Of a DNA stretch of 64,000 bases, positions 185-61,073 are shown piece by piece. The DNA lies in the sequence record OL631479.1, one strand, 5' to 3'. The DNA is from Escherichia phage ECML-10. The notes under the pieces were generated by a model, which worked only from the letters and a program-made list of their open reading frames with translations, did no database searches and was not told the DNA's origin. The translations under genes were made by a program, and so were the position numbers. How positions within the stretch are numbered: the stretch's first letter is position 1; the number at the start of each line of letters is the position of its first letter.

Positions 185-394
185 TCAACAGATTCCGGCC
201 TTATCTCGCCTGTCTGCGTATTCTTTAATCGCAACCTCATCTGCATTAGTGACCAGGTCTTCAAAGTAACTCTCAAGCTCCTCGTCAATGTCAGGAGACC
301 AGCTCTTTTTCCTGTCAGTGTGAATTGCAGACTTGTTGAACTTATTACAGTTCTTTGCTACCGGATTATTCATTAAGCGCTCCTCAGCGTTCAT
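185..394 (-). CDS. hypothetical protein (69 aa)
   Basis: ORF track; start overlaps stop of upstream gene 384..962 by 11 nt; no clear SD. Confidence 0.4.
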   Translation of the reverse strand: MNAEERLMNNPVAKNCNKFNKSAIHTDRKKSWSPDIDEELESYFEDLVTNADEVAIKEYADRRDKAGIC

Positions 395-962
395 AGTAAA
401 TTTTATTTAACATTACCTCATCCTTTGCAGAAAGAATACCGAGATATGCATCACCGAATCTACCTGCAACAACCTCTGCGTGATACATCACTTCGTTAAT
501 ATCGTCAAGAGTGATAACTGGATGACCGTATCTCTCTGAGTATTGTCTCAGAGTGCGATGTAGGGAGTCATCATCATAGGCAGACTTTTTAATATCACAA
601 ACACGACGAATAGCCTTGATGTCGAAAAACCCTGTACGATACCAACCAAGAAAAAGGTTTCGTGCAGTGTCAACATCTACATCAATACCATCAAGAACCT
701 TATCTACAAGATAGCTGTCATCCTTTGGACCTGCTTCCTTAGTGCGAATGTAGTTGCCATCTTTTCCAGGTGACAGCTCCTTCTCATCACCAACCTGAAT
801 GCCATCATTTGGCGGTGTTAACCACTTATCCGGATGCTTACGATCACGAGCGTTAGAATGATTACGCTGGAAACCTGGCTTCCACTTGAAAGTTTTCTCC
901 ATCTGTTCTTCATTCTGATAACGTTTTGCAATCTTTTCACGGTCATCTTTGCGTGAGCTCAT
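384..962 (-). CDS. hypothetical protein (192 aa)
   Basis: ORF track; SD GAGGAGG 6 nt upstream of ATG at 962. Confidence 0.6.
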   Translation of the reverse strand: MSSRKDDREKIAKRYQNEEQMEKTFKWKPGFQRNHSNARDRKHPDKWLTPPNDGIQVGDEKELSPGKDGNYIRTKEAGPKDDSYLVDKVLDGIDVDVDTARNLFLGWYRTGFFDIKAIRRVCDIKKSAYDDDSLHRTLRQYSERYGHPVITLDDINEVMYHAEVVAGRFGDAYLGILSAKDEVMLNKIYYER

Positions 963-1467
963 AGCTGCCTCCTCTTCAAGTTATAGAAAAACTCACTGTA
1001 TCGCTTTGTAACGAGCTTTTCTATCAAACTGGTGCGATTGCATTACTTGGTATGGTTTATACAGCTGTGGAGCGATTTAGGGGCCTCATTATCCGTTTCC
1101 ACACATAAACTTTATCCAAACTCGCGCGGGAGTCTCTCAACCGACTCCTTACGGCGCTGGCAAGCTTTCGTCGGTGGCCCACATTAGTGCTCGGCCTTTG
1201 GCCTGCGCTATCGCTTCGCTCCCACACATGTTAACAGACCTGCATGTATGCACTTCTGTTATTGTGTGCACTATGGAGGCCCGGCATCTCGCCCCCTCGT
1301 AGGCGAGTGCCAATGAAGGGCCGACACTACCTATAGAAAGTAATAAATTTAAAACATGGTACTTAGGATCTAGTATATTCTACATAAGTTAAGTATATGT
1401 ACTTAGTACCATAAGTACTAGATCTTTTATTTTTTATTATTTAGTTATTTTAGTTATATTCTTTATG

Positions 1468-1548
1468 TGTCCGTATCACGGACAGTTAGTGTCCGTATTA
1501 CGGGCAGATGTGTCCGCGTGACGGACAGTAGTGTCCGTATCACGGACA
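1468..1548. promoter_or_regulatory. array of four 17-bp palindromic operator-like sites (TGTCCGTATCACGGACA and variants)
   Basis: Copies at 1468-1484, 1490-1506, 1511-1527, 1532-1548; centre-to-centre 21-22 bp. Confidence 0.6.
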
Positions 1549-1623
1549 GTTACTAGCCTCTGTTCCAGGGCGAACATAAAACATACGAATCCTTATAGTA
1601 CAGATATTTAAGTTTTTACTGGT

Positions 1624-1974
1624 CTAACCAGTTGTTGACATCCGAATAACTTCTTCTGGTGGCAAAACTTTGGAAAATGTGCATCTTTTACCTCTCCCTT
1701 GTGTGGATATTTCAACCACTCCCGCACATTCTAAAGTTTTAACGCACGCTGCTGCTTTTGTTTTCTTTATCCCAACATCTGCTGCAATTTTCCTTGTGCT
1801 GGGTGTGAAGCGTGAATTTCCTCCAAGCTTATACCAGTTGTGCAGGTAGCAGTATACAATCTTGTCATACAAGTCAAGAACAACAACCTCTCCAGTTGTG
1901 TCATTCAAAACTTTTGACATAGACAGTATTTCAAGGGGGACTTTAAGATATAGCAGCTTATCCCCATCTTTCAT
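1624..1974 (-). CDS. putative DNA-binding protein (possible HTH)
   Basis: ORF track; SD AGGAGA before ATG at 1974; C-terminal RKIAADVGIKKTKAAACVKTLECAGVV resembles a helix-turn-helix; adjacent to palindrome array. Confidence 0.5.
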   Translation of the reverse strand: MKDGDKLLYLKVPLEILSMSKVLNDTTGEVVVLDLYDKIVYCYLHNWYKLGGNSRFTPSTRKIAADVGIKKTKAAACVKTLECAGVVEISTQGRGKRCTFSKVLPPEEVIRMSTTG

Positions 1975-2021
1975 ATCTCCTGATTCTCCTTGTGTGGCAA
2001 TTTTCTTTAAAATAGCAGGGA

Positions 2022-2576
2022 TTACTCCCCGCTGTCAATAGCAAGACTCATTGCAATACGGTATGCCTCTTCTAATGGTAAGAGTCTCCCCCACACATCC
2101 CAACCGACATCAAGCTGCCTGCCAAACAACTGTTGTGTGGTTCCGTGAGCATGACCGAACAGTTGGACTGATCCATGAGGCTTTCTGTTCCACTTTGCAA
2201 ACTGGTAATGGCTCATACAGATCAAATTCTTGTTGTGGCGAAGCTCGTAATAATCTACAACCTCGTGATAGAACTCTTTCATAATTCTGACAGTCGTCCT
2301 TGTGTCATGGTTGCCACGAACAAGAATAATATGTCCGTTCAACATATTTAGAATATCCGGGAGTAAGTTGTTGATATTCTTATCATTAGTGCACGCAATA
2401 TCTCCCAAGTGGAACACAGTGTCTGCAGGTGACACAACAGAGTTCCACTCGGCGATGATTCCTGCATTCATACTGTCAAGATTGTGATCATACTGAGATC
2501 TGTGTTTTTGACATGAATCAAACTCCATGACCCGCTGGTGGAGAAAGTGTGTGTCGCTTGTTACAAAGTATTTCAT
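2022..2576 (-). CDS. calcineurin-like metallophosphoesterase (protein/polynucleotide phosphatase)
   Basis: Start moved to internal ATG (MKYFVTSDTHF); motifs DxH, GDIACTNDKN, GNHD, GHAH typical of the family. Confidence 0.75.
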   Translation of the reverse strand: MKYFVTSDTHFLHQRVMEFDSCQKHRSQYDHNLDSMNAGIIAEWNSVVSPADTVFHLGDIACTNDKNINNLLPDILNMLNGHIILVRGNHDTRTTVRIMKEFYHEVVDYYELRHNKNLICMSHYQFAKWNRKPHGSVQLFGHAHGTTQQLFGRQLDVGWDVWGRLLPLEEAYRIAMSLAIDSGE

Positions 2577-2583
2577 ACATTCC

Positions 2584-2994
2584 TCATTTAAGTTTAATGC
2601 AGTTTTTAAGCTGGCGTTCCATACGATCCACAACCCTGTCTGGAACATCATGAATGCTTTTATTACCGTGGCGGTTTTCAACCACGATCACGGTATAACT
2701 ATACCCATGACTGATTGCCATGTCAATATATTCTTGCACATGTTTTTCTTTTGTAAACGTATTACTTACCACGATACGGTCGTATCCCATACGCATCATA
2801 TCTTCTACGTTATCTTTGCACCATTTTGCTGCAAGTGTTACTTTACTTGCATCCCAGTTGTAATTTCCGTCATCGTCGTACCAGAACATGTCGTTCTCAA
2901 AATGTGGATACAGACCTTCTAAAGATAGAGCATTTGCCAGTGTTGATTTGCCAGACCCTGGTATACCACGCACGATATATAGCATTTTAGACAT
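2584..2994 (-). CDS. polynucleotide kinase-like P-loop kinase (T4 Pnkp kinase-domain homolog)
   Basis: Start moved to ATG 2994 (SD GGGGGA); P-loop GIPGSGKST, RIVVSNT and HDVPDRVV align with T4 Pnkp N-terminal kinase domain. Confidence 0.65.
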   Translation of the reverse strand: MSKMLYIVRGIPGSGKSTLANALSLEGLYPHFENDMFWYDDDGNYNWDASKVTLAAKWCKDNVEDMMRMGYDRIVVSNTFTKEKHVQEYIDMAISHGYSYTVIVVENRHGNKSIHDVPDRVVDRMERQLKNCIKLK

Positions 2995-3112
2995 AGCAAT
3001 CCCCCGTTTTAATTTTAATGATAGTATACCTAACTGTTTTGTTAATTTCAAGTGTTGACACTAGGTTGTTTGTGTGGCAGGATAGACTGACAAAATGACA
3101 AATGAGGAACGT

Positions 3113-4030
3113 ATGATGAAGTATTTTAATGCAGACGATCTAGTTGACAAAGGTCTTGTAACCAGTCGATATTATCCAGATCTTGGATTAAAGATCTATA
3201 AATATGCCAGAAAAGTATTCTACAACAATCTGTGGCATTTGTCCCCTCGTTTGCTGGAGTGCCGAGGCATTGTTGTCGGTAATGAAGGAAATGTTGTGGC
3301 ATGGCCCTTCACAAAAGTGTTTAACTTGGGAGAAAATCACACCAACCTGCCTGACAATAAGCTTGTGACGGCGGTAGAGAAAAAGAACGGATTCCTCGGC
3401 GTGGTGTCATCTCATAAAGGTGAACTATTGTTCTCAACAACCGGATCTCTTGATTCCCCATATTGTAACCTCGCAAAGGAAACCATCCGGGAGCAATGTG
3501 GTAATTTAGATCTTATCAAGAAGGTTATGGGCAATGAAAACATGACATTCATGTTTGAAATTTGTCACCCTTCAGATCCGCATATTGTTCAGGAAGATCA
3601 TGGCGCATATTTGATAGGTTGCAGATATAATGATTCTGGAATAATGCTGCCAGAAGCAGCTTTAGATGGGATTGCCAAATACCTTGGCGCAAAACGTCCT
3701 CACACTGTGCGTGAAATTCCGTTCAGCTATGCAAAAGAATTGGCTGCAGAAACAAGAGGTGAAGGGTATATGATTCGTAAGCCTTACTACCCTTATGATC
3801 TGCAGCTGAAGATCAAGTCTCCATACTATCTGGCACGGAAGGCCGTAATGAGGGGTAAAGCTTGGAAGATTTGGGATGATGATATCTTTAAACGTGTTGA
3901 CGAAGAGTTTTACGGCATGGTAAACTTCATTCGTAGCAATTACACAGAAGATGTGTGGAACTGCCTACTGGAGCAGGAACGCAGGGAGATACTCGACCAC
4001 TATTTCCACAACGAGGACTATATGCAATGA
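3113..4030 (+). CDS. RNA ligase, Rnl1 (T4 RnlA) type
   Basis: ECRGI, FNLGEN, KxNG (EKKNGFLG) lysine motif, EGYMIRK and LKIK match T4 Rnl1 motifs; start set to ATG 3113 (SD GAGGAA). Confidence 0.8.
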   Translation: MMKYFNADDLVDKGLVTSRYYPDLGLKIYKYARKVFYNNLWHLSPRLLECRGIVVGNEGNVVAWPFTKVFNLGENHTNLPDNKLVTAVEKKNGFLGVVSSHKGELLFSTTGSLDSPYCNLAKETIREQCGNLDLIKKVMGNENMTFMFEICHPSDPHIVQEDHGAYLIGCRYNDSGIMLPEAALDGIAKYLGAKRPHTVREIPFSYAKELAAETRGEGYMIRKPYYPYDLQLKIKSPYYLARKAVMRGKAWKIWDDDIFKRVDEEFYGMVNFIRSNYTEDVWNCLLEQERREILDHYFHNEDYMQ

Positions 4031-4385: not shown

Positions 4386-5147
4386 ATGCGACGACTGATT
4401 ATTATCTCCGGTGCTGGTTTGAGCGCTGAATCTGGTATTCCCACTTTCCGATCTGGTAGCACTGCAATGTGGGAGAATTTCAGCATCGATGAGGTGTGCA
4501 ACATCCACACCTTTGCCAAGAACTACTATAAGGTGCATGACTTTTACAATGCACGTCGTGTAGCTCTGGGCAGTGTTGATCCTAACCTTGCACATCTTCG
4601 GATCGCTGAGTGGTATTCCCGCTGGTCTGGTCGTGTGATCAACCTTACCACCAATGTAGATGATTTGCTGGAGCGTGCTGGTGTAAAACATGAAGATATT
4701 TTACATGTCCACGGGTATTTGCCTGAAATCACCTACGAAGATGCTGAAGGTAATGATGTAATTAAAAATATCGGATACACGGAGGTAGATACAGGTAAGT
4801 ATACCTGGGTTAAGCCCAATGTAGTGTTCTTCGGTGAGGTTGCTCCTAAGTATACAGACATGTATGACCTGTTGACATCTCTCACAAGCAATGATATGGT
4901 GATCCTGGTAGGTTGTTCTAACACAGTTATTAATTTTAACTGGGAATTGTTTCCTGCTACTTGTAAAGGCACAAAACTGCTGATTGTAAACAAGTATGAT
5001 TCGCAGAGTGCAGATGGAAGTGGCATTTCACGTAGCGACCTTTATCAATATGAGGATCGCGGGATCCCTGTATGGTTTAACGGTGCTGTTGACGCTTTCT
5101 CTGATAAAGTATTTATTGAAACTGTAGAAAACTTTATGGAACTTTAA
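4386..5147 (+). CDS. SIR2-family NAD-dependent deacylase/ADP-ribosyltransferase
   Basis: Sirtuin signature GAGLSAESGIPTFRSG near N-terminus and HVHG catalytic His motif. Confidence 0.75.
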   Translation: MRRLIIISGAGLSAESGIPTFRSGSTAMWENFSIDEVCNIHTFAKNYYKVHDFYNARRVALGSVDPNLAHLRIAEWYSRWSGRVINLTTNVDDLLERAGVKHEDILHVHGYLPEITYEDAEGNDVIKNIGYTEVDTGKYTWVKPNVVFFGEVAPKYTDMYDLLTSLTSNDMVILVGCSNTVINFNWELFPATCKGTKLLIVNKYDSQSADGSGISRSDLYQYEDRGIPVWFNGAVDAFSDKVFIETVENFMEL

Positions 5148-42198: not shown

Positions 42199-42411
42199 AT
42201 GATCAACACGCATGCACCTGAAGAGACATCCGAAGGAGTGACCATATGTCCATTGTCTGAGCCAGTGAAAGAGGAAAACTTCGATTCTGAAGATTCTCCA
42301 TCTTCGCTCCAGGTAGATCCTGAGGCTGATGACCTAACGTGGGAAGACATCGTAGACATCTGGTTCTCCATTATGCCTGAGCACGAAGAGTTCAGAGGTG
42401 GTAGACTATGA
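42199..42411 (+). CDS. hypothetical acidic protein (70 aa)
   Basis: ORF track; weak SD. Confidence 0.4.
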   Translation: MINTHAPEETSEGVTICPLSEPVKEENFDSEDSPSSLQVDPEADDLTWEDIVDIWFSIMPEHEEFRGGRL

Positions 42412-42748: not shown

Positions 42749-44329
42749 CACACAATTAGCTGCCCGGCTAAAGTGCTGGAAGCACCTATAACACATCTTT
42801 CAACTAAATTTCCCACCACCACAATCACTTACCTCCCACACATGACTGTTTGCTTGTTTAGTGAGCAGTCATGCCTTGACATTCTTGCCTATCCTGATAA
42901 AATTAAGTTCTTCTCTTTTCTTTTACCGAGTAATTCGGGTTTTCTGTTCTCTTCGGTTTGAAGGGGTATGGAGATACACCTGAGTGAACAGGGTGAACAA
43001 CCGAACATTTGGCTATGGCATTAGCATGGCGAAGCGGACGGGTGACGAAAGAGGGGCCGGAGGACACCAGTCACTGCCATATGATATATGGGTGATAACC
43101 TGAAGAGTCTGAATAAGTGTTTAAGTACCAGTCAGAGGAAAAGGTGAATGGTAGCCGAAGGGGGAGGGGGTTTCTTGTATCTTTAATTTGTATATTATGT
43201 ATACATTCGTAAACCAATCTCATCTGAATCTGTTTACCACACAAAGTGGATAGAGACAAATATTACCTATTAAACTTGAATTATTTATAGAAAATACTAC
43301 AACACTACTTAAGTATTTGATTTTACACACAAATCCTGCAGATATTCACCCCCCATATTTAACATACTTGTAACATATTCCATACTCTACCTGACCGATC
43401 AACTCACCCAACTACATCCTCCATATTTCCCCTGTCTGTACTACCCCTGCCCAGCCGGGAGTCCCGTCATATCTGGCTTTCCAGCAAATATCACACCCAC
43501 AAATATCATTGCCTGAAGAGGGTTTCATCCCATAATACATGCCTTACCTGAAGAGCGCTTCATATACCCCGTAAATTTTTTAATTGACACCCTCCCCGCC
43601 GCCGGAGGGGGTTGGCTTTTCCCACACAGACCCGAAGAGCCAGCCAGAAATATCTGAACAGGTCCAGCTATGCCACGATTTTGACCTGACCTACAGGAGT
43701 GCTTCCCTGTCAGGAGCCGGTAGCGACTGGAGTGCTGCCAGGCGGACGAAATGGGAATACTTCTCATTCTTATAATAATTCTCAAATATCGAGGCAGTGA
43801 GGCAAATTAATAGGTGAGGCCGTTCACACAGTGGCACAACATTTGCAACCTATCTTGTGTGGGGGAATGAGAATACCTATCATTGTGAGAATAGTTATCA
43901 TTACGGGCAATTTAACATAATACCCATTATGCGCACCACTGGCGATCCATACAGGGATTGATAACATGAGTTACTGTTTATGCATATAACAATTATATTT
44001 CTTACTATTTGTGTGGGATATAGTTAGCAGCCAATAGATTAGATATTGACCTGTAGACTTCTGACCGTCCAGACGTCTAAACGCCCACACAACAAGGCTT
44101 ATACATACATCGCTGAATGTAAACAGGGCCGCAAAAATGCTACCATACCAGATTGTAAATTTTTCATACAGCACTTGACAAAGAGGAGAAAAACTTGTCT
44201 GACACTTTAGACACAATAGTGACATAATGGTGACACACTGGGCATACTCAACACACTGGATACAATAACAGTTGTTACTATTGCATGCTTCACTGTTCAC
44301 GTATAGATTGTTTACACAGAGATGATAAG

Positions 44330-44620
44330 CCATGCCATTCGTTTGCATGACAATAATTAACTTGTTTACAATCTTTCACTGGCTATGCCAGGTGACCTTT
44401 GGTCACCCCTTCGGGTGTTTCTATGACATAATATAAAAGCAGGGCAACTATTAGAAGATCTATAGTTGCCTTGCTTGTTATGTCACGATTAACTAAATAC
44501 AAGGCAACTATGATCTGATTAATAGTTTGCAGACAAACTATCACGGGGGTGATGGTTACTGCTTTTATATTATGTCGCGACTCCGTCGCGCCATGCCATT
44601 CGTTTGCATAGTTGCCTTAT
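44330..44620. repeat. complex of direct and inverted repeats (GGCAACTAT iterons, 18-bp inverted pair, CCATTCGTTTGCAT direct pair)
   Basis: GGCAACTAT/ATAGTTGCC four times; GACATAATATAAAAGCAG at 44424-44441 with reverse complement at 44561-44578; CCATTCGTTTGCAT at about 44334 and 44596. Confidence 0.55.
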
Positions 44621-53957: not shown

Positions 53958-54149
53958 TTTTGTACCTCCCCTTCAATTGTTACCTATCCTATAGCATAGG
54001 CCCACCAGGTTTACAAGCCTTCATTCTCTCCTGCCTGGTCAGTTAGGTCCTGCCAGGCTGGCCCCGCCAGGTTGCAGCGGTTAGCGCATCAGGTTAGAAA
54101 AATTTTTTGAAAAGTGTTGACAGCGGCCCCGCCAGGTGGCACAATATAC

Positions 54150-54400
54150 CTATCGAAAGGACGGCAGGCACCGGTGACGGGGGAGACAACCACCGGGGAT
54201 GGGCGCTGCATAAAATGAGAACGGTTATCATTATCATTTAAAAATTTATGCAAAAAATCCTTGCTTTCTTTGTCCTGTGTGATACTATAATAACAAGCCG
54301 GGGCAACAGGGGCCGGGAGACAATCACCGGGCCTGCCCGTTATTCTGCAAACGAGAATGATTATCATTCAAAATTCTAAATGAGAACTCCTCGCATTTAA
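54150..54400. repeat. two copies of a duplicated noncoding unit carrying Fur-box-like palindromes
   Basis: GGGAGACAA(C/T)CACCGGG and ...GAGAA(C/T)G(G/A)TTATCATT... occur twice; GAATGATTATCATTC is a perfect 15-bp palindrome. Confidence 0.5.
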
Positions 54401-54419
54401 TAAATTTAATTAGCATGCT

Positions 54420-54960
54420 AATTACCCTCCGTAACAATTTCCTATAAAACAGTATCCCATAAAATATTCCCATATAGAAATTTTAAAAATCCATTTCTGA
54501 AAACGAAAAATCGATTTCGTCCCCAAAAATTTCAGGTCGAGATCCGGAACGATTTCCAGAAAATCCGATTCAGAAAACGAAAAACAGATCGAGTACTGAG
54601 AAATTTATCGAGAAAAATTTTCAGAAAATCCAAGCCATGAAATGAAAAGTAGATCGAGTACTTGGAAAGCTGCACCGCAACTTCAAGATAGTGGTTAGAT
54701 TGTTACCATAGAAGGTTAAGGGCAAGTGGAGGAAGTTCTAGTAGAGGGAGGTTAGCATGTGTGGGAAATCTATAATGGTGGCCTGGAATATGGTGCAAAC
54801 GATAGGATGAGTTATTCAGCTTGTCGCGCCTACTCTGAAAAATCCATTTTAGTTTTCGATCCATTTTCTGATTTTCTAAGAATTTTAAAATATCCAGCCC
54901 GGTGAAATATCAAAAGGAGGAAATCCATTTTAGAAATCCCCCTTACACTTGATATGCCAG
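54420..54960. repeat. AT-rich iteron-dense noncoding region
   Basis: Repeated GAAAATCC, TTCAGAAAACGAAAAA, AGATCGAGTACT and AAATCCATTTTAG motifs; no credible ORF. Confidence 0.55.
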
Positions 54961-57937: not shown

Positions 57938-58033
57938 GGGCAGTGGCCTCCTGTTAGCTATACATCCCAGTTTTCTTCGTTCATCACGTCCTCCCGTTCT
58001 ATGAAGTTATAATTGCACACCTTTCAACCTGTG

Positions 58034-58450
58034 TCAACAGAAAACTTCAACAAATTCTTCCACAGTTTTAATGTCGTGGGAAAAAGGTTTACGGCTATAG
58101 CGGGCAATAGCACTATCAACCACCGCCCGGTACTCCAAATCTTCAGAATATTTCATGAAGCATTGCAGCGTCTCTGGGCAGATAGCTAAATAGCTCCACC
58201 ACCCCTCTTCAGATTGGTAGTCGAATCCCATACTCTCCAACCATGAAGCATATACTCCTGCACCCTCTAGCCAGTGGGTATTTTCATCAAGAAATTTATT
58301 CACCGACATGTGTGCTTCCAGGCACTCGTCAAGCTCTTTTCCGTTAACCAGCCATGCACTGACTGTGGCGCATCCGAGGTCTACAGATTGAGTTGGCAGG
58401 TTGTATTGGTCATAGTTCTCAGGTTTAACAATGATATCTTCTAATGTCAT
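58034..58450 (-). CDS. hypothetical protein (138 aa)
   Basis: SD AAGGAGA before ATG 58450. Confidence 0.55.
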   Translation of the reverse strand: MTLEDIIVKPENYDQYNLPTQSVDLGCATVSAWLVNGKELDECLEAHMSVNKFLDENTHWLEGAGVYASWLESMGFDYQSEEGWWSYLAICPETLQCFMKYSEDLEYRAVVDSAIARYSRKPFSHDIKTVEEFVEVFC

Positions 58451-58512
58451 TTTTCAGATCTCCTTATACAAAAATGCCCCACCCTTTCGGGCAGGGCTAT
58501 GTTAGTTAGGTG

Positions 58513-59136
58513 CTAAAAGTATTCATAGAGGTATCCATCTGGGGCTGGAATTTTTTCATGAATGTAGTAATCAACACATATTCCGGTTTCTCTTCTGCAA
58601 GAATTGTGGGATACCCATTCTTTGAGAACGTTGCCATTCATGTCCAGCCTCCTTACATTTTTACACCGTCTACCGCTGGTGCTTCTATGCAACAGAATAT
58701 CCTCTGTCTGCTTGTCTTTATTTTCTCCCCAAGTCGTTAAACGGATATTATCAAAAGAGTACCCTTTGAAATCATCTATCCTGTCACAAGAAGGCTTTTT
58801 CCTTTTGTCGTATCCGCTGGCTACCCACTGGTCATACAACTCTTTGTAACCGTTTAGGTATAGCCACTCCTTAAACTCTTTTTTGGTGTAAGTCGGAGGT
58901 GGGTGACCTCTCTTCTTACTGTTGCACTTTTGAGTCTTGTACAACACGCGGATCACACCTTTTTCTGAAGAGTCGTGGGAAAATTGGTCAGCCTCCCTGC
59001 TGGCCTTCTTGCAACACTCTTTGCACTTATTAAGATGACCGTCAGACATCTTTGGGTGTTTGTAGAACTCGGAGAGGTTTTTCACCTCTCCGCACTTGAT
59101 GCACCTCTTACAATGCGTGGATTCTACTTTTGCCAT
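58513..59136 (-). CDS. putative HNH-type homing endonuclease with N-terminal Cys-rich finger
   Basis: [10 protein letters not shown]...CKECC finger; [23 protein letters not shown] resembles HNH_3; C-terminal [20 protein letters not shown] resembles endonuclease DNA-binding modules; start approximate. Confidence 0.5.
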
Positions 59137-60379
59137 ATTGCAAACCCACCGGAGCGAAAGGTATGTCATCACAGAAGTCGTACTGTGCTGGATTCTGATC
59201 CATCGGGTCATCTTCCTCATCATTTACAGGAGGGGCGTCTACAGTGTTTTGCTGTGGAGCTGCTTCCTGTTTGGCAGCCTGAGGTTCTTGATGGTCAGTT
59301 GACCCAGCACCGTTCTTGATCCAATCGTACAACGGCTCAGCCAGATTAGTCAAGACATCTTTTGCTTCTACAGTAATTGCCGCTGCAAAATCATCAACTT
59401 TCGTTTTCTTGTCAATACGGCGACAAGCGTTCAACACTGCATTACCGACACTGGCACCTACTTCATCTTCAGTTCGGTTGGTGGCTTGAGCATACTCTTT
59501 CTTAAGCTCAATGGTGACTACGTGCAGTGTTTTAGCCACGCCCAGTGGGTCGTCTACCTTAAACCCGCGATCCAGGATGATCTGCAACGCATTGATGCTA
59601 TGCCCCGTTTCCACACCGATAGGGTCGTAAGAGGATTTACGCTTGCCACCGGAGCCTTGAGTGCCGTTCTCTGCCTTAGGAGGATAGGCCTTGAAACCAC
59701 TGATAATGTTTCCAGTGTCTTTGTCAACAATGGCTGCAACACGACCACCTACCACCAGGTCTTTAAGCTGCTCATCAGTGACAACCATAGCACCTTCGCC
59801 AATCTTGTGGTCATTAACAGTAACCACGTTGCCAACAATCTGAGTCACATCACCATAGATGCGTAAAACGTCCTGATTGGCATTCTGCTGAGGTTTCTGC
59901 TTCTGGCCTTGTGATTGTGCACCTTGTTGCTGTTTTTGCTGCTGAGTCGCTGCTGGAGCCTCTCCTGCACCCAGCTTGACCATCTTAGCCAGTGAGCCTT
60001 TGTAATAGGTCTTACCGTTATGCTCGTTTGCCTTCAAAGGGATATTTACGATCCATCCTGGCGTTACGGTTTCCCACTTGTCATCAATCTTAACAGAGAC
60101 AGAGTCTTGATGCCCCGGTTTAAGCAGCTTATCACCCATGCTGATCCAGACTTCTTCACCGCCTTGAAGCAGGTTATCAGAGGAATCCAGTTCAGAAATC
60201 AGTAAAGAGATAGTGTGGCTGGATTCAATTTTCTTACCTTGCCACACGGTGGTTTTAATACCTGTTGCAGGATCAGCCCCTTTAATAGGTTTAATGCTAA
60301 CACGCTTGATCATGCCGTGAGCCAGTAAAACAGTTTCACGCGGATTCATCGGGTTAGCGAATTGTTGAATAACGCTCAT
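59108..60379 (-). CDS. hypothetical protein with Gln-rich linker and acidic tail containing DDIPF
   Basis: 423 aa; [20 protein letters not shown] low-complexity linker; C-terminal DFCDDIPF resembles SSB tail motif; ATG overlaps upstream stop. Confidence 0.55.
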
Positions 60380-60744
60380 TATTTGTCTCCTTGTTCTTCG
60401 TTAGTGTTTGCCGTGTGTGCAAACCCTGCTTGAATTAATTTGTCCTGAACTTGAGCCAACAGGCCCATTGCAAAACTTGTGGTCCCAGAGAGGGCCATCA
60501 ACATATCTCGTTGTTGAGCTACCCAACCTAAGGCATAGTCCAAACGACGATATTTTTCTTCTTCACGCAGAGCCTGAAATAATTGTTCAGCCTCCGGTTG
60601 TTGTGTGAGCTCCTGAAGTCTTCCCATGAAAGAAGAAAGCACTAGCAAAAGAGACACTTGATCTTTACTTAACCCTAAGAAAAATTCTTGAGGTTGTTCT
60701 TGCTCGTTCATCGCAACCGACTCTTGATCGTTCATTTGTTCCAT
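60379..60744 (-). CDS. hypothetical protein (121 aa)
   Basis: SD GGAGAT before ATG 60744. Confidence 0.55.
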   Translation of the reverse strand: MEQMNDQESVAMNEQEQPQEFFLGLSKDQVSLLLVLSSFMGRLQELTQQPEAEQLFQALREEEKYRRLDYALGWVAQQRDMLMALSGTTSFAMGLLAQVQDKLIQAGFAHTANTNEEQGDK

Positions 60745-60827
60745 TATGGAATCTCCGATTTTATTTGAACAACATAGAAGGAGACACTATTTTAGCATCC
60801 CCTTCTGTAAATTACAATAGGTATTTG

Positions 60828-61073
60828 TTAGCCAATCACTTCGAAAGTTCCCCAATTCCCGTCCAGCAGGCAGGTGATCGGATCCCCATCGTCGTCAAAG
60901 ATTTCAAAGTTTTCAGCATCCAGGATGTGGCCCTCGAACACAATACTTTCGTCGCCACCACCAGAGATAACAGCGTATTCCTTACCTTGTGTCAAGTTTT
61001 GACACCCTTTGCCACCAAAACCTACTTCAACACAACGTACTTTCTGTCCTGCGCGAGCAACTACTTCAGCCAT
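60828..61073 (-). CDS. hypothetical protein (81 aa)
   Basis: SD AGGAGA before ATG 61073. Confidence 0.55.
   Translation of the reverse strand: MAEVVARAGQKVRCVEVGFGGKGCQNLTQGKEYAVISGGGDESIVFEGHILDAENFEIFDDDGDPITCLLDGNWGTFEVIG

What the first reader, a model, noticed from the sequence alone, without database searches (positions are those of the whole stretch)
963..1623. 660-bp ORF-free region with a GC-rich structured segment and an AT-rich palindromic segment
Positions about 1040-1320 are markedly more GC-rich than the surrounding genome and contain several short hairpins (GGAGTC-N8-GACTCC, GGCC-TTT-GGCC, CTCGCC-N9-GGCGAG). Positions 1330-1440 are AT-rich with inverted repeats (GGTACTTAG/CTAAGTACC, GATCTAGTA/TACTAGATC). 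No ORF of 60 aa or more exists on either strand. A structured noncoding RNA or an origin/packaging region are possible.
Basis: seen in the sequence. Interest (0 to 1): 0.5.

Follow-up and report, generated by a model that had tools for sequence, protein, structure and literature searches.

The report
Likely phage replication origin region
This gene-free stretch of an rV5-like E. coli phage looks like its replication origin (four repeated protein-binding sites beside an easily melted AT-rich tract), and next to it lies a conserved cluster of small hairpins that 13-kb satellite-like E. coli plasmids carry beside their own origins.

Summary
Window 963-1623 has no ORF of 60 aa or more. Positions 1124-1323 are the GC-richest 200 bp of the 64-kb window, and 1331-1466 is its least stable and AT-richest stretch. 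In a divergent relative, the AT tract, the repeats and that gene are replaced together as one unit. This fits an iteron-type origin, which has not been mapped for rV5-like phages.

The GC-rich part is non-coding and matches no Rfam family. It is a string of small hairpins separated by CCACACA-like motifs. Two of its modules are the only non-coding DNA this phage shares with ~13-kb circular E. coli plasmids. Those plasmids encode rV5-like tail and neck proteins and their own initiator, and the hairpin string again sits beside their AT-rich tract and repeats. Compensatory changes preserve the stems (module A, p about 1e-5 to 3e-4).

Whether the hairpins act as RNA or as single-stranded DNA is unresolved, and so is the strand. 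My best reading is an origin plus an origin-accessory element. No experiment supports any of this yet.

The parts
384..962 (-). Left flanking gene (rV5 gp073 homologue, 192 aa, function unknown). It is found only in Vequintavirus.
   Evidence: ORF list. No Pfam hit; PHROG 12226, function unknown. tblastn finds it only in 119 Vequintavirus records. Matches rV5 annotation 64086-64664.
963..1029 (.). Highly conserved leader just upstream of the gp073 ribosome-binding site. It holds a 12-nt inverted repeat, ATAGAAAAACTC / GAGCTTTTCTAT (983-994 / 1013-1024).
   Evidence: Inverted repeat I8. It is 92.5% identical to the divergent relative L006, against 69% at third codon positions of the neighbouring gene. 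The minus strand folds slightly better (z -2.15 against -1.4).
1030..1120 (.). Poorly conserved upstream part of the GC-rich element. It holds a 20-mer, TGGTGCGATTGCATTACTTG (1030-1049), that the satellites carry in inverted orientation. It also holds GCGATTTAGGGGCC (1072-1085), which is shared with the satellites.
   Evidence: 64% identity to L006, which is near neutral. The 18/20 plus/minus match to L003 is; the alignment is.
1121..1186 (.). Hairpin module A. Its core is CGGCGCTGGCAAGCTTTCG and its helix is 1140-1145/1170-1175. It ends in CCCACAT. It is present in all 118 Vequintavirus records and in 7 of the 8 satellite-like sequences examined; L145 keeps only its start and end.
   Evidence: 82-85% identity to the plasmids. 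Helix ACCGAC/GTCGGT in the phages becomes GCTGCC/GGCAGC in the satellites, which is 3 compensated pairs. Random-substitution control: 2 of 200,000 for a single stem, 62 of 200,000 over all stems. 91% identity to L006. The L145 variant is shown.
1187..1230 (.). Hairpin modules B and C, containing GGCC-TTT-GGCC (1193-1203) and GCGAAGC on the minus strand. They end in CTCCCACACA.
   Evidence: 98.8% mean pairwise identity among typical relatives and 87.5% to L006. Sequence.
1231..1274 (.). Hairpin module D, a long imperfect inverted repeat (1225-1245 / 1248-1268). It is variable, and two relatives carry an 18-nt deletion.
   Evidence: Inverted repeat I2. Alignment shows the 18-nt deletion in A147 and typing phage 5. 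73% identity to L006.
1275..1334 (.). Hairpin module E. Its stacked stems are 1278-1282/1318-1322, 1283-1286/1308-1311 and 1288-1293/1302-1307, followed by GACAC. It is shared with satellite plasmid NZ_CP020521.1.
   Evidence: 87% identity to L003 12635-12694. The same fold appears in phage and satellite, with z -3.4 and -3.55 on the plus strand and -2.1 and -2.2 on the minus strand. Two compensated pairs; control p about 0.023. 92% identity to L006.
1335..1466 (.). AT-rich tract and candidate DNA-unwinding element. It holds GATCTTTTATTTT (1421-1433), interleaved inverted repeats and two GATC sites.
   Evidence: AT-richest and least stable stretch of the 64-kb window. It holds the only exact match in the window to GATCTNTTNTTTT. 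Its hairpin potential is not above shuffles. It is replaced together with the repeats and the winged-helix gene in L006.
1467..1552 (.). Four tandem 21-22-bp repeats (candidate iterons), each containing the 17-bp dyad TGTCCG-N5-CGGACA.
   Evidence: Repeat family D1. Within two mismatches, the other two matches in the window (15633, 61545) are at chance level. Copy number is 2, 3 or 4 among relatives. Folding z -6.6.
1553..1623 (.). Spacer between the repeats and the stop codon of the winged-helix gene.
   Evidence: Sequence. 89% mean pairwise identity among relatives.
1624..1974 (-). 116-aa winged-helix DNA-binding protein (rV5 gp075 homologue). It is the candidate origin-binding initiator, or alternatively a regulator.
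   Evidence: PHROG 12838 'replication initiation protein' (E 2.5e-80), with weaker hits to other initiator and O-like PHROGs. HTH_36 and DUF6945 score just below their Pfam cut-offs. PDB 4ro3 at E 1.4e-6 and RepA_N at E about 1.2. Found only in Vequintavirus. L006 carries a 143-aa homologue at 27% identity with different repeats.
2009..2038 (-). Sigma-70-like promoter upstream of the winged-helix gene (TTGACA-18-TATTTT, with TG). Transcripts from it would read through the repeats, the AT tract and the hairpin array, because no terminator is predicted in between.
   Evidence: Promoter and terminator scan. rV5 annotates promoter P76 at the equivalent place. Read-through is an inference.

Best explanation
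The ORF-free region is a composite cis-acting replication-control region of an rV5-like (Vequintavirus) phage.

Right half (1335-1552): an iteron-type origin. Dimers of the adjacent 116-aa winged-helix protein would bind the four dyad-symmetric repeats, which are phased about two helical turns apart. The complex would then open the neighbouring AT-rich tract, the least stable DNA in the window.

Left half (1030-1334): a non-coding array of small hairpins punctuated by CCACACA-like motifs. I read it as an origin-accessory element. After melting, or when transcribed, the hairpins form in single-stranded DNA or RNA. They would then give the phage's own T7-like primase-helicase and polymerase a place to load or prime, or supply an activating or primer transcript.

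Thirteen-kb plasmid-like satellites of these phages carry their own initiator and repeats. They keep the phage's hairpin modules A and E beside their origins, presumably to borrow the helper's replication machinery.

What is shown: the anatomy, the conservation, the compensatory changes, the cassette swap and the sharing with satellites. What is inferred: binding, melting, priming and hijacking.
For: Origin:
- Four 21-22-bp repeats each carry a 17-bp dyad, which is essentially confined to this site in 64 kb. Copy number varies from 2 to 4 among relatives.
- They abut the AT-richest and least stable tract of the window, more than 5 sd from the mean. That tract holds the only exact GATCTNTTNTTTT match. 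This string is the E. coli oriC 13-mer consensus, from my own knowledge.
- The adjacent gene's best family matches are phage replication-initiator PHROGs.
- In the divergent relative L006, the AT tract, the repeats and the gene are replaced as one block. The replacement is a 27%-identical homologue with different repeats, while the flanks stay homologous. This is how origin/initiator specificity cassettes behave.
- The order along minus-strand transcription is initiator gene, repeats, AT tract, palindromic DNA. This mirrors lambda ori, from my own knowledge.

Hairpin array:
- It is non-coding, with no codon-position bias and with frame-breaking indels.
- Modules A, B/C and E are 88-92% identical to L006, against 69% at synonymous-like sites.
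- Stems are kept by compensatory change in module A (controls 2 of 200,000 for a single stem and 62 of 200,000 over all stems) and module E (2 pairs, p about 0.023). Stems are also kept among satellite modules.
- All 10 arrays tested fold better than shuffles (z -1.7 to -6.9).
- Modules A and E are the only non-coding DNA shared between the phage and the satellites.
- The array has the same orientation and the same position, followed by an AT-rich tract and then repeats, in both phage and satellites.
- Satellite repeats and initiators differ from one another while module A stays the same in 7 of the 8 satellite sequences.
- The satellites encode homologues of rV5 gp048, gp056 and gp049 and an O-like initiator.
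Against: - There is no experimental datum of any kind: no origin mapping, binding assay or transcript.
- The winged-helix protein is only 116 aa and lacks any recognisable helicase-recruiting domain. Its Pfam hits fall just below cut-off, and the single-sequence AlphaFold model was unusable (pLDDT 42). It could equally be a transcription factor.
- DnaA-box-like sites are not enriched (2 near the region; 36 in the window against 20 expected).
- The published GC-skew analysis of rV5 did not single out this site (PMC3606486).
- No sigma-70-like promoter or terminator lies within the region.
- The strand and the chemistry of the hairpins (RNA or DNA) are unresolved. The A-C versus G-T pattern slightly favours the minus strand. 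A terminator-like last module and a promoter-like site in the satellites favour the plus strand. Fold energies show no preference.
- Most covariation rests on one phage-versus-satellite split.
- One satellite (L145) lacks the module A core.
Confidence: 0.5

Rival explanations
1. The region is a regulatory operator array, not an origin. The 116-aa winged-helix protein would be a transcription factor. Its four dyad sites would control leftward expression of gp073, the tRNA genes and downstream genes, or its own operon. The AT tract would be promoter or upstream DNA.
For: - Many records annotate the gene as a transcriptional regulator.
- Its weak profile matches include CodY, LexA, TrmB and MarR-type HTH domains.
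- The protein is small and single-domain.
- The dyad sites lie between two minus-strand genes, and the conserved leader 963-1029 lies in front of gp073.
Against: - No sigma-70-like promoter is found anywhere in 963-1623 on either strand.
- The rV5 late-promoter motif TGGTAAAATA is absent from the intergenic region.
- The strongest family matches are replication initiators.
- The AT tract is an extreme outlier in stability.
- The analogous arrangement in the 13-kb plasmids must include their replicon, because no other rep gene is present.
Confidence: 0.2
2. The GC-rich element (about 1030-1334) is a free-standing structured non-coding RNA, or an array of small RNAs separated at the CCACACA motifs. 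Its function would be unrelated to replication, for example titrating an RNA-binding protein or countering a host defence. The satellites would have copied parts of it.
For: - Stems are conserved by compensatory changes, and folding is significant.
- In the satellites the array is preceded by a promoter-like site and ends in a terminator-like hairpin on the plus strand.
- The unit 'hairpin then CCCACACA' also occurs in 5' leaders of phage genes, at window 50194, 45900 and 1997.
- No coding signal is present.
Against: - No Rfam family matches in the phage or the satellites.
- No promoter or terminator is predicted in the phage copy.
- Both strands fold equally well, which is the usual signature of DNA-level palindromes.
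- Within-genus covariation is nil (covariation term +0.14).
- The array sits immediately beside an AT tract and repeats in every genome.
Confidence: 0.18
3. Modules A and E are the packaging recognition (pac) site of these headful-packaging phages. The satellites would copy the site so that the helper terminase packages their DNA.
For: - Vequintavirus is reported to use headful (pac) packaging with partial permutation, according to PhageTerm (PMC13211470).
- The satellites encode no terminase.
- Modules A and E are the only non-coding sequences they share with the helper. This parallels P4 carrying the P2 cos site, from my own knowledge.
Against: - The site lies 3.8 kb from the large-terminase gene, with tRNA and lysis genes in between, and is not in or next to any small-terminase candidate.
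- Selection acts on stem pairing rather than on sequence, which is not expected for a double-stranded terminase-binding site.
- The array tracks the origin in both kinds of genome.
- One satellite (L145) lacks the module A core.
Confidence: 0.1

Closest known systems
Phage lambda origin (ori-lambda with O protein)
   Same: Both have four tandem repeats, each with dyad symmetry for a dimeric winged-helix initiator domain. In both, an AT-rich tract follows and then palindromic DNA. Both are transcribed through from the initiator's promoter. Origin and initiator swap together between relatives. The lambda details come from my own knowledge; the local features are.
   Different: Lambda ori lies inside the O gene, whereas here the repeats lie downstream of the gene. 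O has a C-terminal domain that recruits P and DnaB, whereas this protein has 116 aa and one domain. Similarity to O-like PHROGs is only weak (E 0.02-0.08). Lambda has nothing like the roughly 300-bp hairpin array.
RSF1010/IncQ oriV (iterons, GC-rich and AT-rich segments, ssiA/ssiB hairpins used by the plasmid's own primase)
   Same: Both combine iterons and an AT-rich tract with conserved stem-loops that act as single-strand initiation signals for an element-encoded primase. This is the closest analogue for the mechanism proposed for the hairpin array. The RSF1010 details come from my own knowledge.
   Different: No sequence similarity was tested or seen. RSF1010 has two hairpins on opposite strands. 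Here there are at least five modules in one orientation, separated by a CCACACA-like motif. Priming is not shown here.
Transcript-dependent origins: ColE1 RNA II, the T7 primary origin and T4 oriF/oriG
   Same: In these, a structured or R-loop-forming transcript, or promoters next to an AT-rich tract, starts DNA synthesis. rV5 has a T7-like DNA polymerase and primase-helicase. The plus strand of the array is C-rich (GC skew -0.10 to -0.21), so a minus-strand transcript would be G-rich.
   Different: No promoter is predicted in the phage copy. No RNA I-like antisense partner is evident. There is no sequence relationship.
PLE satellites of vibriophage ICP1 (own RepA_N initiator and iterons, but the helper's replisome)
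   Same: In both, a satellite of a virulent myovirus brings its own initiator and repeats and depends on helper replication proteins. The PLE details come from my own knowledge. The 13-kb plasmids here have an O-like initiator and 5-6 repeats spaced at 23 bp.
   Different: PLEs are integrated islands without capsid or tail genes. These elements are circular plasmids that encode a capsid protein, a tape measure, and Dit-like and neck proteins. A non-coding element shared between helper and satellite has not been described for PLE.
P4/P2 shared cos site
   Same: In both cases a short non-coding sequence is nearly the only DNA shared between satellite and helper. This is the basis of the packaging rival.
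   Different: cos is a double-stranded terminase site next to the terminase genes. Here the shared DNA is a set of hairpins kept by compensatory change, and it lies beside origins.

Membership tests
Iteron-type replication origin (lambda-like or plasmid-like) | Tandem direct repeats of about 17-22 bp in helical phase | tested here: met
   Four copies at 1467-1552 with spacing of 22, 21 and 21 bp, each holding a 17-bp dyad. The dyad is essentially unique to this site in 64 kb. Relatives carry 2-4 copies.
Iteron-type replication origin (lambda-like or plasmid-like) | Adjacent AT-rich DNA-unwinding element | tested here: met
   1331-1466 is the least stable and AT-richest tract of the window, at 19% GC. 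It holds the only exact GATCTNTTNTTTT match in the window.
Iteron-type replication origin (lambda-like or plasmid-like) | Neighbouring gene is a member of a known initiator family | tested here: inconclusive
   PHROG 12838 is labelled 'replication initiation protein', and there are weaker hits to other initiator and O-like PHROGs. However, HTH_36 scores 24.5 against a cut-off of 25 and DUF6945 scores 27.1 against 28. RepA_N structures match only at E about 1.2. The structure model was unusable.
Iteron-type replication origin (lambda-like or plasmid-like) | Repeats and DNA-binding protein change together between relatives (specificity cassette) | tested here: met
   In L006 the AT tract, repeats and gene are replaced by a 143-aa homologue (27% identity, E 5e-7) with ATCTGATGCA-type repeats. 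The flanking genes and the hairpin array stay homologous.
Iteron-type replication origin (lambda-like or plasmid-like) | Host DnaA boxes flanking the repeats (common in plasmid origins, not universal) | tested here: inconclusive
   One-mismatch boxes lie at 1112-1120 and 1702-1710, but 36 occur in the window against 20 expected by chance.
Iteron-type replication origin (lambda-like or plasmid-like) | Supports initiation of DNA synthesis in vivo or in vitro | not testable with these tools
   This needs marker-frequency or 2D-gel mapping, or a replication assay.
Lambda ori specifically | Origin embedded in the initiator gene, and a two-domain initiator that recruits a helicase loader | tested here: not met
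   The repeats lie 72 bp beyond the stop codon of a 116-aa single-domain protein.
Curated structured RNA family (Rfam) | Match to a covariance model at the gathering score | tested here: not met
   No match in the window, in 900-1700 under permissive filters (best hit rli43, 26 bits against 100), or in the satellites and L006. ARAGORN finds no tRNA or tmRNA.
Structured non-coding RNA in general | Secondary structure supported by compensatory changes | tested here: met
   Module A helix has 3 compensated pairs and module E has 2 (controls). Satellite modules have 1 and 3 compensated pairs. Within the phage genus there is too little variation to test.
Structured non-coding RNA in general | Defined strand, promoter and terminator, or a detected transcript | tested here: inconclusive
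   The phage copy has no promoter or terminator. The satellites have a weak plus-strand promoter and a terminator-like last module. Fold z-scores are similar on both strands. Transcripts cannot be tested here.
pac site of a headful-packaging phage | Located in or beside the small-terminase or terminase genes | tested here: not met
   The rV5 large terminase is at 58027-60872. This region is at 64665-65307, with tRNA genes and spanin genes in between.
pac site of a headful-packaging phage | First terminase cut maps to the site | not testable with these tools
   This needs virion DNA end mapping. Only the packaging mode is reported.
Single-strand initiation (ssi/sso-type) priming signals | Conserved stem-loops next to an origin, with pairing rather than sequence maintained | tested here: met
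Single-strand initiation (ssi/sso-type) priming signals | Recognised by a primase or RNA polymerase on single-stranded DNA, in one orientation only | not testable with these tools
   T7-type primase sites (GGGTC, TGGTC, GTGTC) were inspected by eye. Only one occurs in the phage array, at 1322-1327 on the minus strand, so there is no enrichment.
Small protein-coding genes (as annotated in some records, e.g. rv5_gp074, bas52_0217-0219) | Codon-position bias of substitutions and a preserved reading frame | tested here: not met
   Variable sites by codon position are 16/21/15, 13/7/12, 18/17/23 and 7/10/12. Single-base indels are present. There are no PHROG hits.

The most novel reading that the evidence does not exclude
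The hairpin array would be a previously undescribed kind of cis-acting 'handle': a string of interchangeable small stem-loops punctuated by CCACACA. Virulent rV5-like phages would use it to start DNA synthesis with their own primase-helicase. A new family of plasmid-borne satellites that encode their own capsid and tail proteins would have copied it, so that they are replicated, or otherwise served, by the helper. This would be a new point of molecular parasitism between a satellite and a strictly lytic coliphage.
Probability: 0.3. Interest if true: 0.8.

Novelty: new variant of a known kind. Interest (0 to 1): 0.6.

Why it matters
rV5-like phages are widely used in E. coli O157 biocontrol and in phage-therapy collections, yet their replication origin has never been located. 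The original genome paper tried base skew only. A concrete, testable origin with a candidate initiator would help engineering and rebooting of these 137-kb genomes.

The hairpin array links these lytic phages to 13-kb plasmids found in E. coli isolates from humans, a chicken and a feral pig. Those plasmids encode rV5-like tail and neck proteins, a capsid protein and their own initiator. If they are satellites, they would be a new example of satellites exploiting a virulent coliphage. The shared hairpins would mark where the exploitation happens. This is relevant to phage-therapy efficacy and to gene transfer.

Tried and rejected
- **Known RNA families:** Rfam at gathering and permissive thresholds, and ARAGORN, found nothing.
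- **Small ORFs in the GC-rich part as genes:** rejected. There is no codon-position bias, frame-breaking indels are present, and there are no PHROG hits.
not conserved.
- **AT-rich inverted repeats as hairpins:** not above shuffles, and they are interleaved.
- **Within-genus covariation:** too little variation to be useful.
- **Strand assignment from fold energies:** no preference.
- **Strand assignment from mismatch types:** 3-4 A-C cases and no G-T cases on the plus strand. This is suggestive of the minus strand only.
- **rV5 late-promoter motif TGGTAAAATA:** absent from the region, so the 'late-operon leader' idea was dropped.
- **DnaA boxes:** not enriched.
- **CCACACA as a replication- or transcription-oriented polar motif:** 31 of 48 and 28 of 48 sites are consistent, and neither count is convincing.
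- **T7-type primase sites:** not enriched (by eye).
- **Exact 17-mer scan of genome contigs:** returned only chance matches, including a REP-like repeat in a Selenomonadales MAG. The IMG/VR hit L005 is also chance.
- **IMG/VR protein-based searches:** nothing found for the winged-helix protein or the satellite capsid protein.
- **Homologues of gp073 and the winged-helix protein outside Vequintavirus:** none, so no syntenic comparison with other genera was possible.
- **Single-sequence AlphaFold model of the winged-helix protein:** pLDDT 42, so no fold search was run.
- **Literature:** no paper was found on a Vequintavirus origin, transcriptome or satellite.
Full report
**What the window is.** BLAST of 900-1700 finds 118 phage records at 91-98% identity, all of them Vequintavirus (rV5-like myoviruses of E. 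coli). The region corresponds to rV5 64665-65307. It lies between gp073 (192 aa, function unknown) and gp075 (116 aa, annotated 'replication initiation protein' or 'transcriptional regulator'). Both flanking genes are on the minus strand. To the right lie a phosphoesterase, a polynucleotide kinase and a divergent promoter region. To the left lie small genes, six tRNA genes, spanins, the large terminase (3.8 kb away) and the structural genes. The rV5 genome paper shows a 'non-coding' box on its map, and it looked for the origin by base skew only, without success (PMC3606486).

**Checking the observation.** No ORF of 60 aa or more lies in 963-1623.
- Positions 1124-1323 are the GC-richest 200 bp of the whole 64-kb window (59.5% against 42.6 ± 3.8%).
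- Immediately next to them, 1331-1466 is the AT-richest (19% GC) and thermodynamically least stable tract, more than 5 sd from the mean.

Three corrections are needed.
- The GGAGTC/GACTCC stem is perfect only in this window; 20 of 21 relatives have a mismatch at its fifth pair.
- One of the two AT-rich inverted repeats is imperfect. The two are interleaved rather than nested, and the tract does not fold better than shuffles.
Each contains the 17-bp dyad TGTCCGTATCACGGACA. Within two mismatches, the only other matches in the window (15633, 61545) are at chance level.

**The right half reads as an origin.** Four lines of evidence point this way.
- The repeats are phased about two helical turns apart, and relatives carry 2, 3 or 4 copies.
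- The repeats abut the extreme AT tract, which contains the only exact match in the window to GATCTNTTNTTTT. I recognise this string as the oriC 13-mer consensus from my own knowledge.
- The adjacent gene is a winged-helix protein whose best matches are phage replication-initiator families: PHROG 12838, then 8102, 428 and 270, and weakly the O-like families. Pfam HTH_36 and DUF6945 fall just under their cut-offs. In the PDB it matches an uncharacterised 120-aa protein (4ro3, E 1.4e-6) and, very weakly, RepA_N domains.
- A divergent rV5-like genome (IMG/VR and JGI contigs, L006/L134) keeps gp073, the GC-rich element and the phosphoesterase gene. However, it replaces the AT tract, the repeats and the gene as one block. 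The replacement is a T-rich tract, a different set of ATCTGATGCA-type repeats, and a 143-aa homologue only 27% identical.

Joint replacement of a DNA-binding protein and its sites is what origin/initiator specificity cassettes do. Along the direction of minus-strand transcription, the order is initiator gene, four dyad repeats, AT tract, then palindromic DNA. That is the order in lambda ori (my own knowledge). Here, though, the repeats lie outside the gene and the protein has only one domain. The caveats are real: DnaA boxes are not enriched, the structure model was unusable, and nothing has been tested at the bench.

**The left half is a conserved, non-coding hairpin array.** The small ORFs that some records annotate here show no codon-position bias and are broken by single-base indels. 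They also have no PHROG hits. The divergent genome differs at 31% of third codon positions in the neighbouring gene. Against that genome, identity is:
- 92.5% for the leader 963-1029;
- 91% for module A (1121-1186);
- 87.5% for modules B/C (1187-1230);
- 92% for module E (1275-1326).

In contrast, 1030-1120 (64%) and module D (73%) drift at about the neutral rate. On the plus strand the array reads as stem-loops, each followed by CCACACA, CCCACAT or a similar motif. No Rfam family matches.

**The link to 13-kb plasmids.** The GC-rich part matches 82-87% to unannotated DNA in small circular E. coli plasmids: NZ_CP020521.1, NZ_CP178698.1, NZ_CP035869.1, CP148565.1, CP134895.1 and a 39.6-kb trimer, NZ_CP043822.1. 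It also matches two metagenome contigs. These elements encode:
- a major capsid protein (PHROG 29);
- a Dit-like protein 50% identical to rV5 gp048;
- a neck protein 45% identical to gp056;
- a tape measure 26% identical to gp049;
- several HTH proteins;
- a 303-aa protein that weakly matches O-like initiators.

They encode no terminase, portal or sheath. They therefore look like satellites of rV5-like phages. I found no paper describing them.

Across the whole phage genome, the only non-coding DNA the satellites share is module A, module E and a few short strings just upstream of module A. In the satellites the array is longer, and its inner modules are shuffled like cassettes from one plasmid to another. 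Module A is constant in 7 of 8; L145 keeps only its ends. In every satellite, the array is followed in the same orientation by a short AT-rich GATCTATT-type tract. Next come 5-6 repeats spaced at 23 bp, which differ between satellites. So the array accompanies origins but is independent of which initiator is used.

**Are the hairpins selected?** Yes.
- In module A the phage helix ACCGAC/GTCGGT becomes GCTGCC/GGCAGC in the satellites, which is three compensated pairs out of only 11 differences. Random substitution reaches this in 2 of 200,000 trials for a single stem, or 62 of 200,000 counting all stems.
- Module E has two compensated pairs (p about 0.023) and folds identically in phage and satellite.
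- Between satellites, one three-hairpin module shows one compensated pair in one stem and three in another.
- All ten arrays tested fold better than dinucleotide shuffles (z -1.7 to -6.9).

**RNA or DNA, and which strand?** This is unresolved.
- The few non-Watson-Crick cells are all A-C on the plus strand, which is G-U or G-T on the minus strand. The minus strand is probably transcribed by read-through from the promoter at 2038-2009, because no terminator intervenes.
- On the other hand, the satellites have a promoter-like site upstream on the plus strand and a terminator-like final module. The unit 'hairpin then CCCACACA' also occurs in the sense orientation in the 5' leaders of several phage genes.
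- Fold energies do not discriminate. That pattern is what DNA-level palindromes give.

**Most likely mechanism (inferred).**
1. gp075 dimers occupy the four repeats.
2. The AT tract melts.
3. The hairpin array, exposed as single-stranded DNA or made as a transcript running towards or away from the melted tract, provides loading or priming signals for the phage's T7-like primase-helicase and polymerase (gp225 and gp223).
4. The satellites supply their own initiator and repeats but keep the helper's hairpin modules in order to use that machinery.

The closest known analogues are lambda ori for the right half. For the left half they are the ssiA/ssiB hairpins of RSF1010 oriV, or the transcript-dependent origins of ColE1, T7 and T4. 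For the satellite logic the analogue is PLE/ICP1.

**Rivals.**
- An operator array for a transcription factor (0.2).
- A free-standing structured RNA (0.18).
- The pac site (0.1). This one is plausible because Vequintavirus is reported to package by the headful mechanism and the satellites lack a terminase. Against it, the site is far from the terminase gene, and selection acts on pairing rather than on sequence.

**Verdict.** The finding is real and more structured than reported. It is a new variant of a known kind: an iteron-type origin with an unusual accessory hairpin array. The unexpected link to apparently undescribed satellite plasmids raises its interest.

Noticed in passing
L003 (NZ_CP020521.1, whole 13,689 bp); also L127-L131, L133, L145 and L004: About 13-kb circular E. 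coli plasmids encode a capsid protein, a tape measure and an O-like initiator with its own 23-bp-spaced repeats. They also encode Dit-like and neck proteins that are 45-50% identical to rV5 gp048 and gp056. They have no terminase or portal. One record is a head-to-tail trimer. They look like an undescribed satellite family of virulent rV5-like phages that encodes its own capsid and tail proteins.
   Followed up: partly
window 53,990-54,900: This is another complex ORF-poor region. It has two tandem units, each made of a sigma-70-like promoter, a GC-rich hairpin and a shared AAAYGAGAAYGRTTATCATT tail (about 54110-54245 and 54255-54381). Three AT-rich repeats of 65-74 bp follow at 54468-54668. 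It pairs the second GC-richest 200-bp stretch of the window with one of its four least stable 100-bp tracts. It could hold small RNA genes or a second origin-like region.
   Followed up: no
window 44353-44421 (-), 42217-42274 (+), 43584-43775 (+); L003 10884-10934: A peptide motif of about 23 aa (PEGVT.GHL..PVKE-like) is shared between the C-terminal half of the satellite initiator-like protein and several tiny phage ORFs. It may be a short interaction motif.
   Followed up: partly
whole window and rV5 (L146-L148); L003: The heptamer CCACACA/TGTGTGG is about 3-fold over-represented in the phage (48 against about 17 expected). It is about 10-fold over-represented in the satellite (17 against 1.7). 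Several copies form the unit 'hairpin, CCCACACA, ribosome-binding site, ATG' in front of small genes (window 50194, 45900, 1997, all minus strand). Its strand bias fits neither transcription nor replication direction convincingly.
   Followed up: partly
L006 1953-2816 (IMGVR_UViG_3300010279_000001), equivalent to window 1327-2021: A divergent rV5-like genome carries a different winged-helix gene (143 aa) with its own ATCTGATGCA-type repeats and a T-rich tract at exactly this locus. This is a clean example of a swapped specificity cassette.
   Followed up: yes
window 1057-1227 (-) and neighbouring small ORFs: Some GenBank records annotate 30-56-aa 'hypothetical proteins' inside the GC-rich element (rv5_gp074; bas52_0217 to 0219). 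Substitution patterns and indels indicate that they are not genes.
   Followed up: yes
L007, L016, L030, L045, L051 (Selenomonadales MAG CAMUZU01): A REP-like repeat in this MAG happens to contain the same 17-mer as module A (GCGCTGGCAAGCTTTCG). The flanks are unrelated, so this is a coincidence and not homology.
   Followed up: yes
window 2584-4030 and 4386-5147: Polynucleotide kinase, phosphoesterase and RNA ligase 1 genes sit beside a Sir2-like gene, right next to the candidate origin and about 2 kb from the phage tRNA cluster. They look like a tRNA-repair and anti-defence gene set.
   Followed up: no
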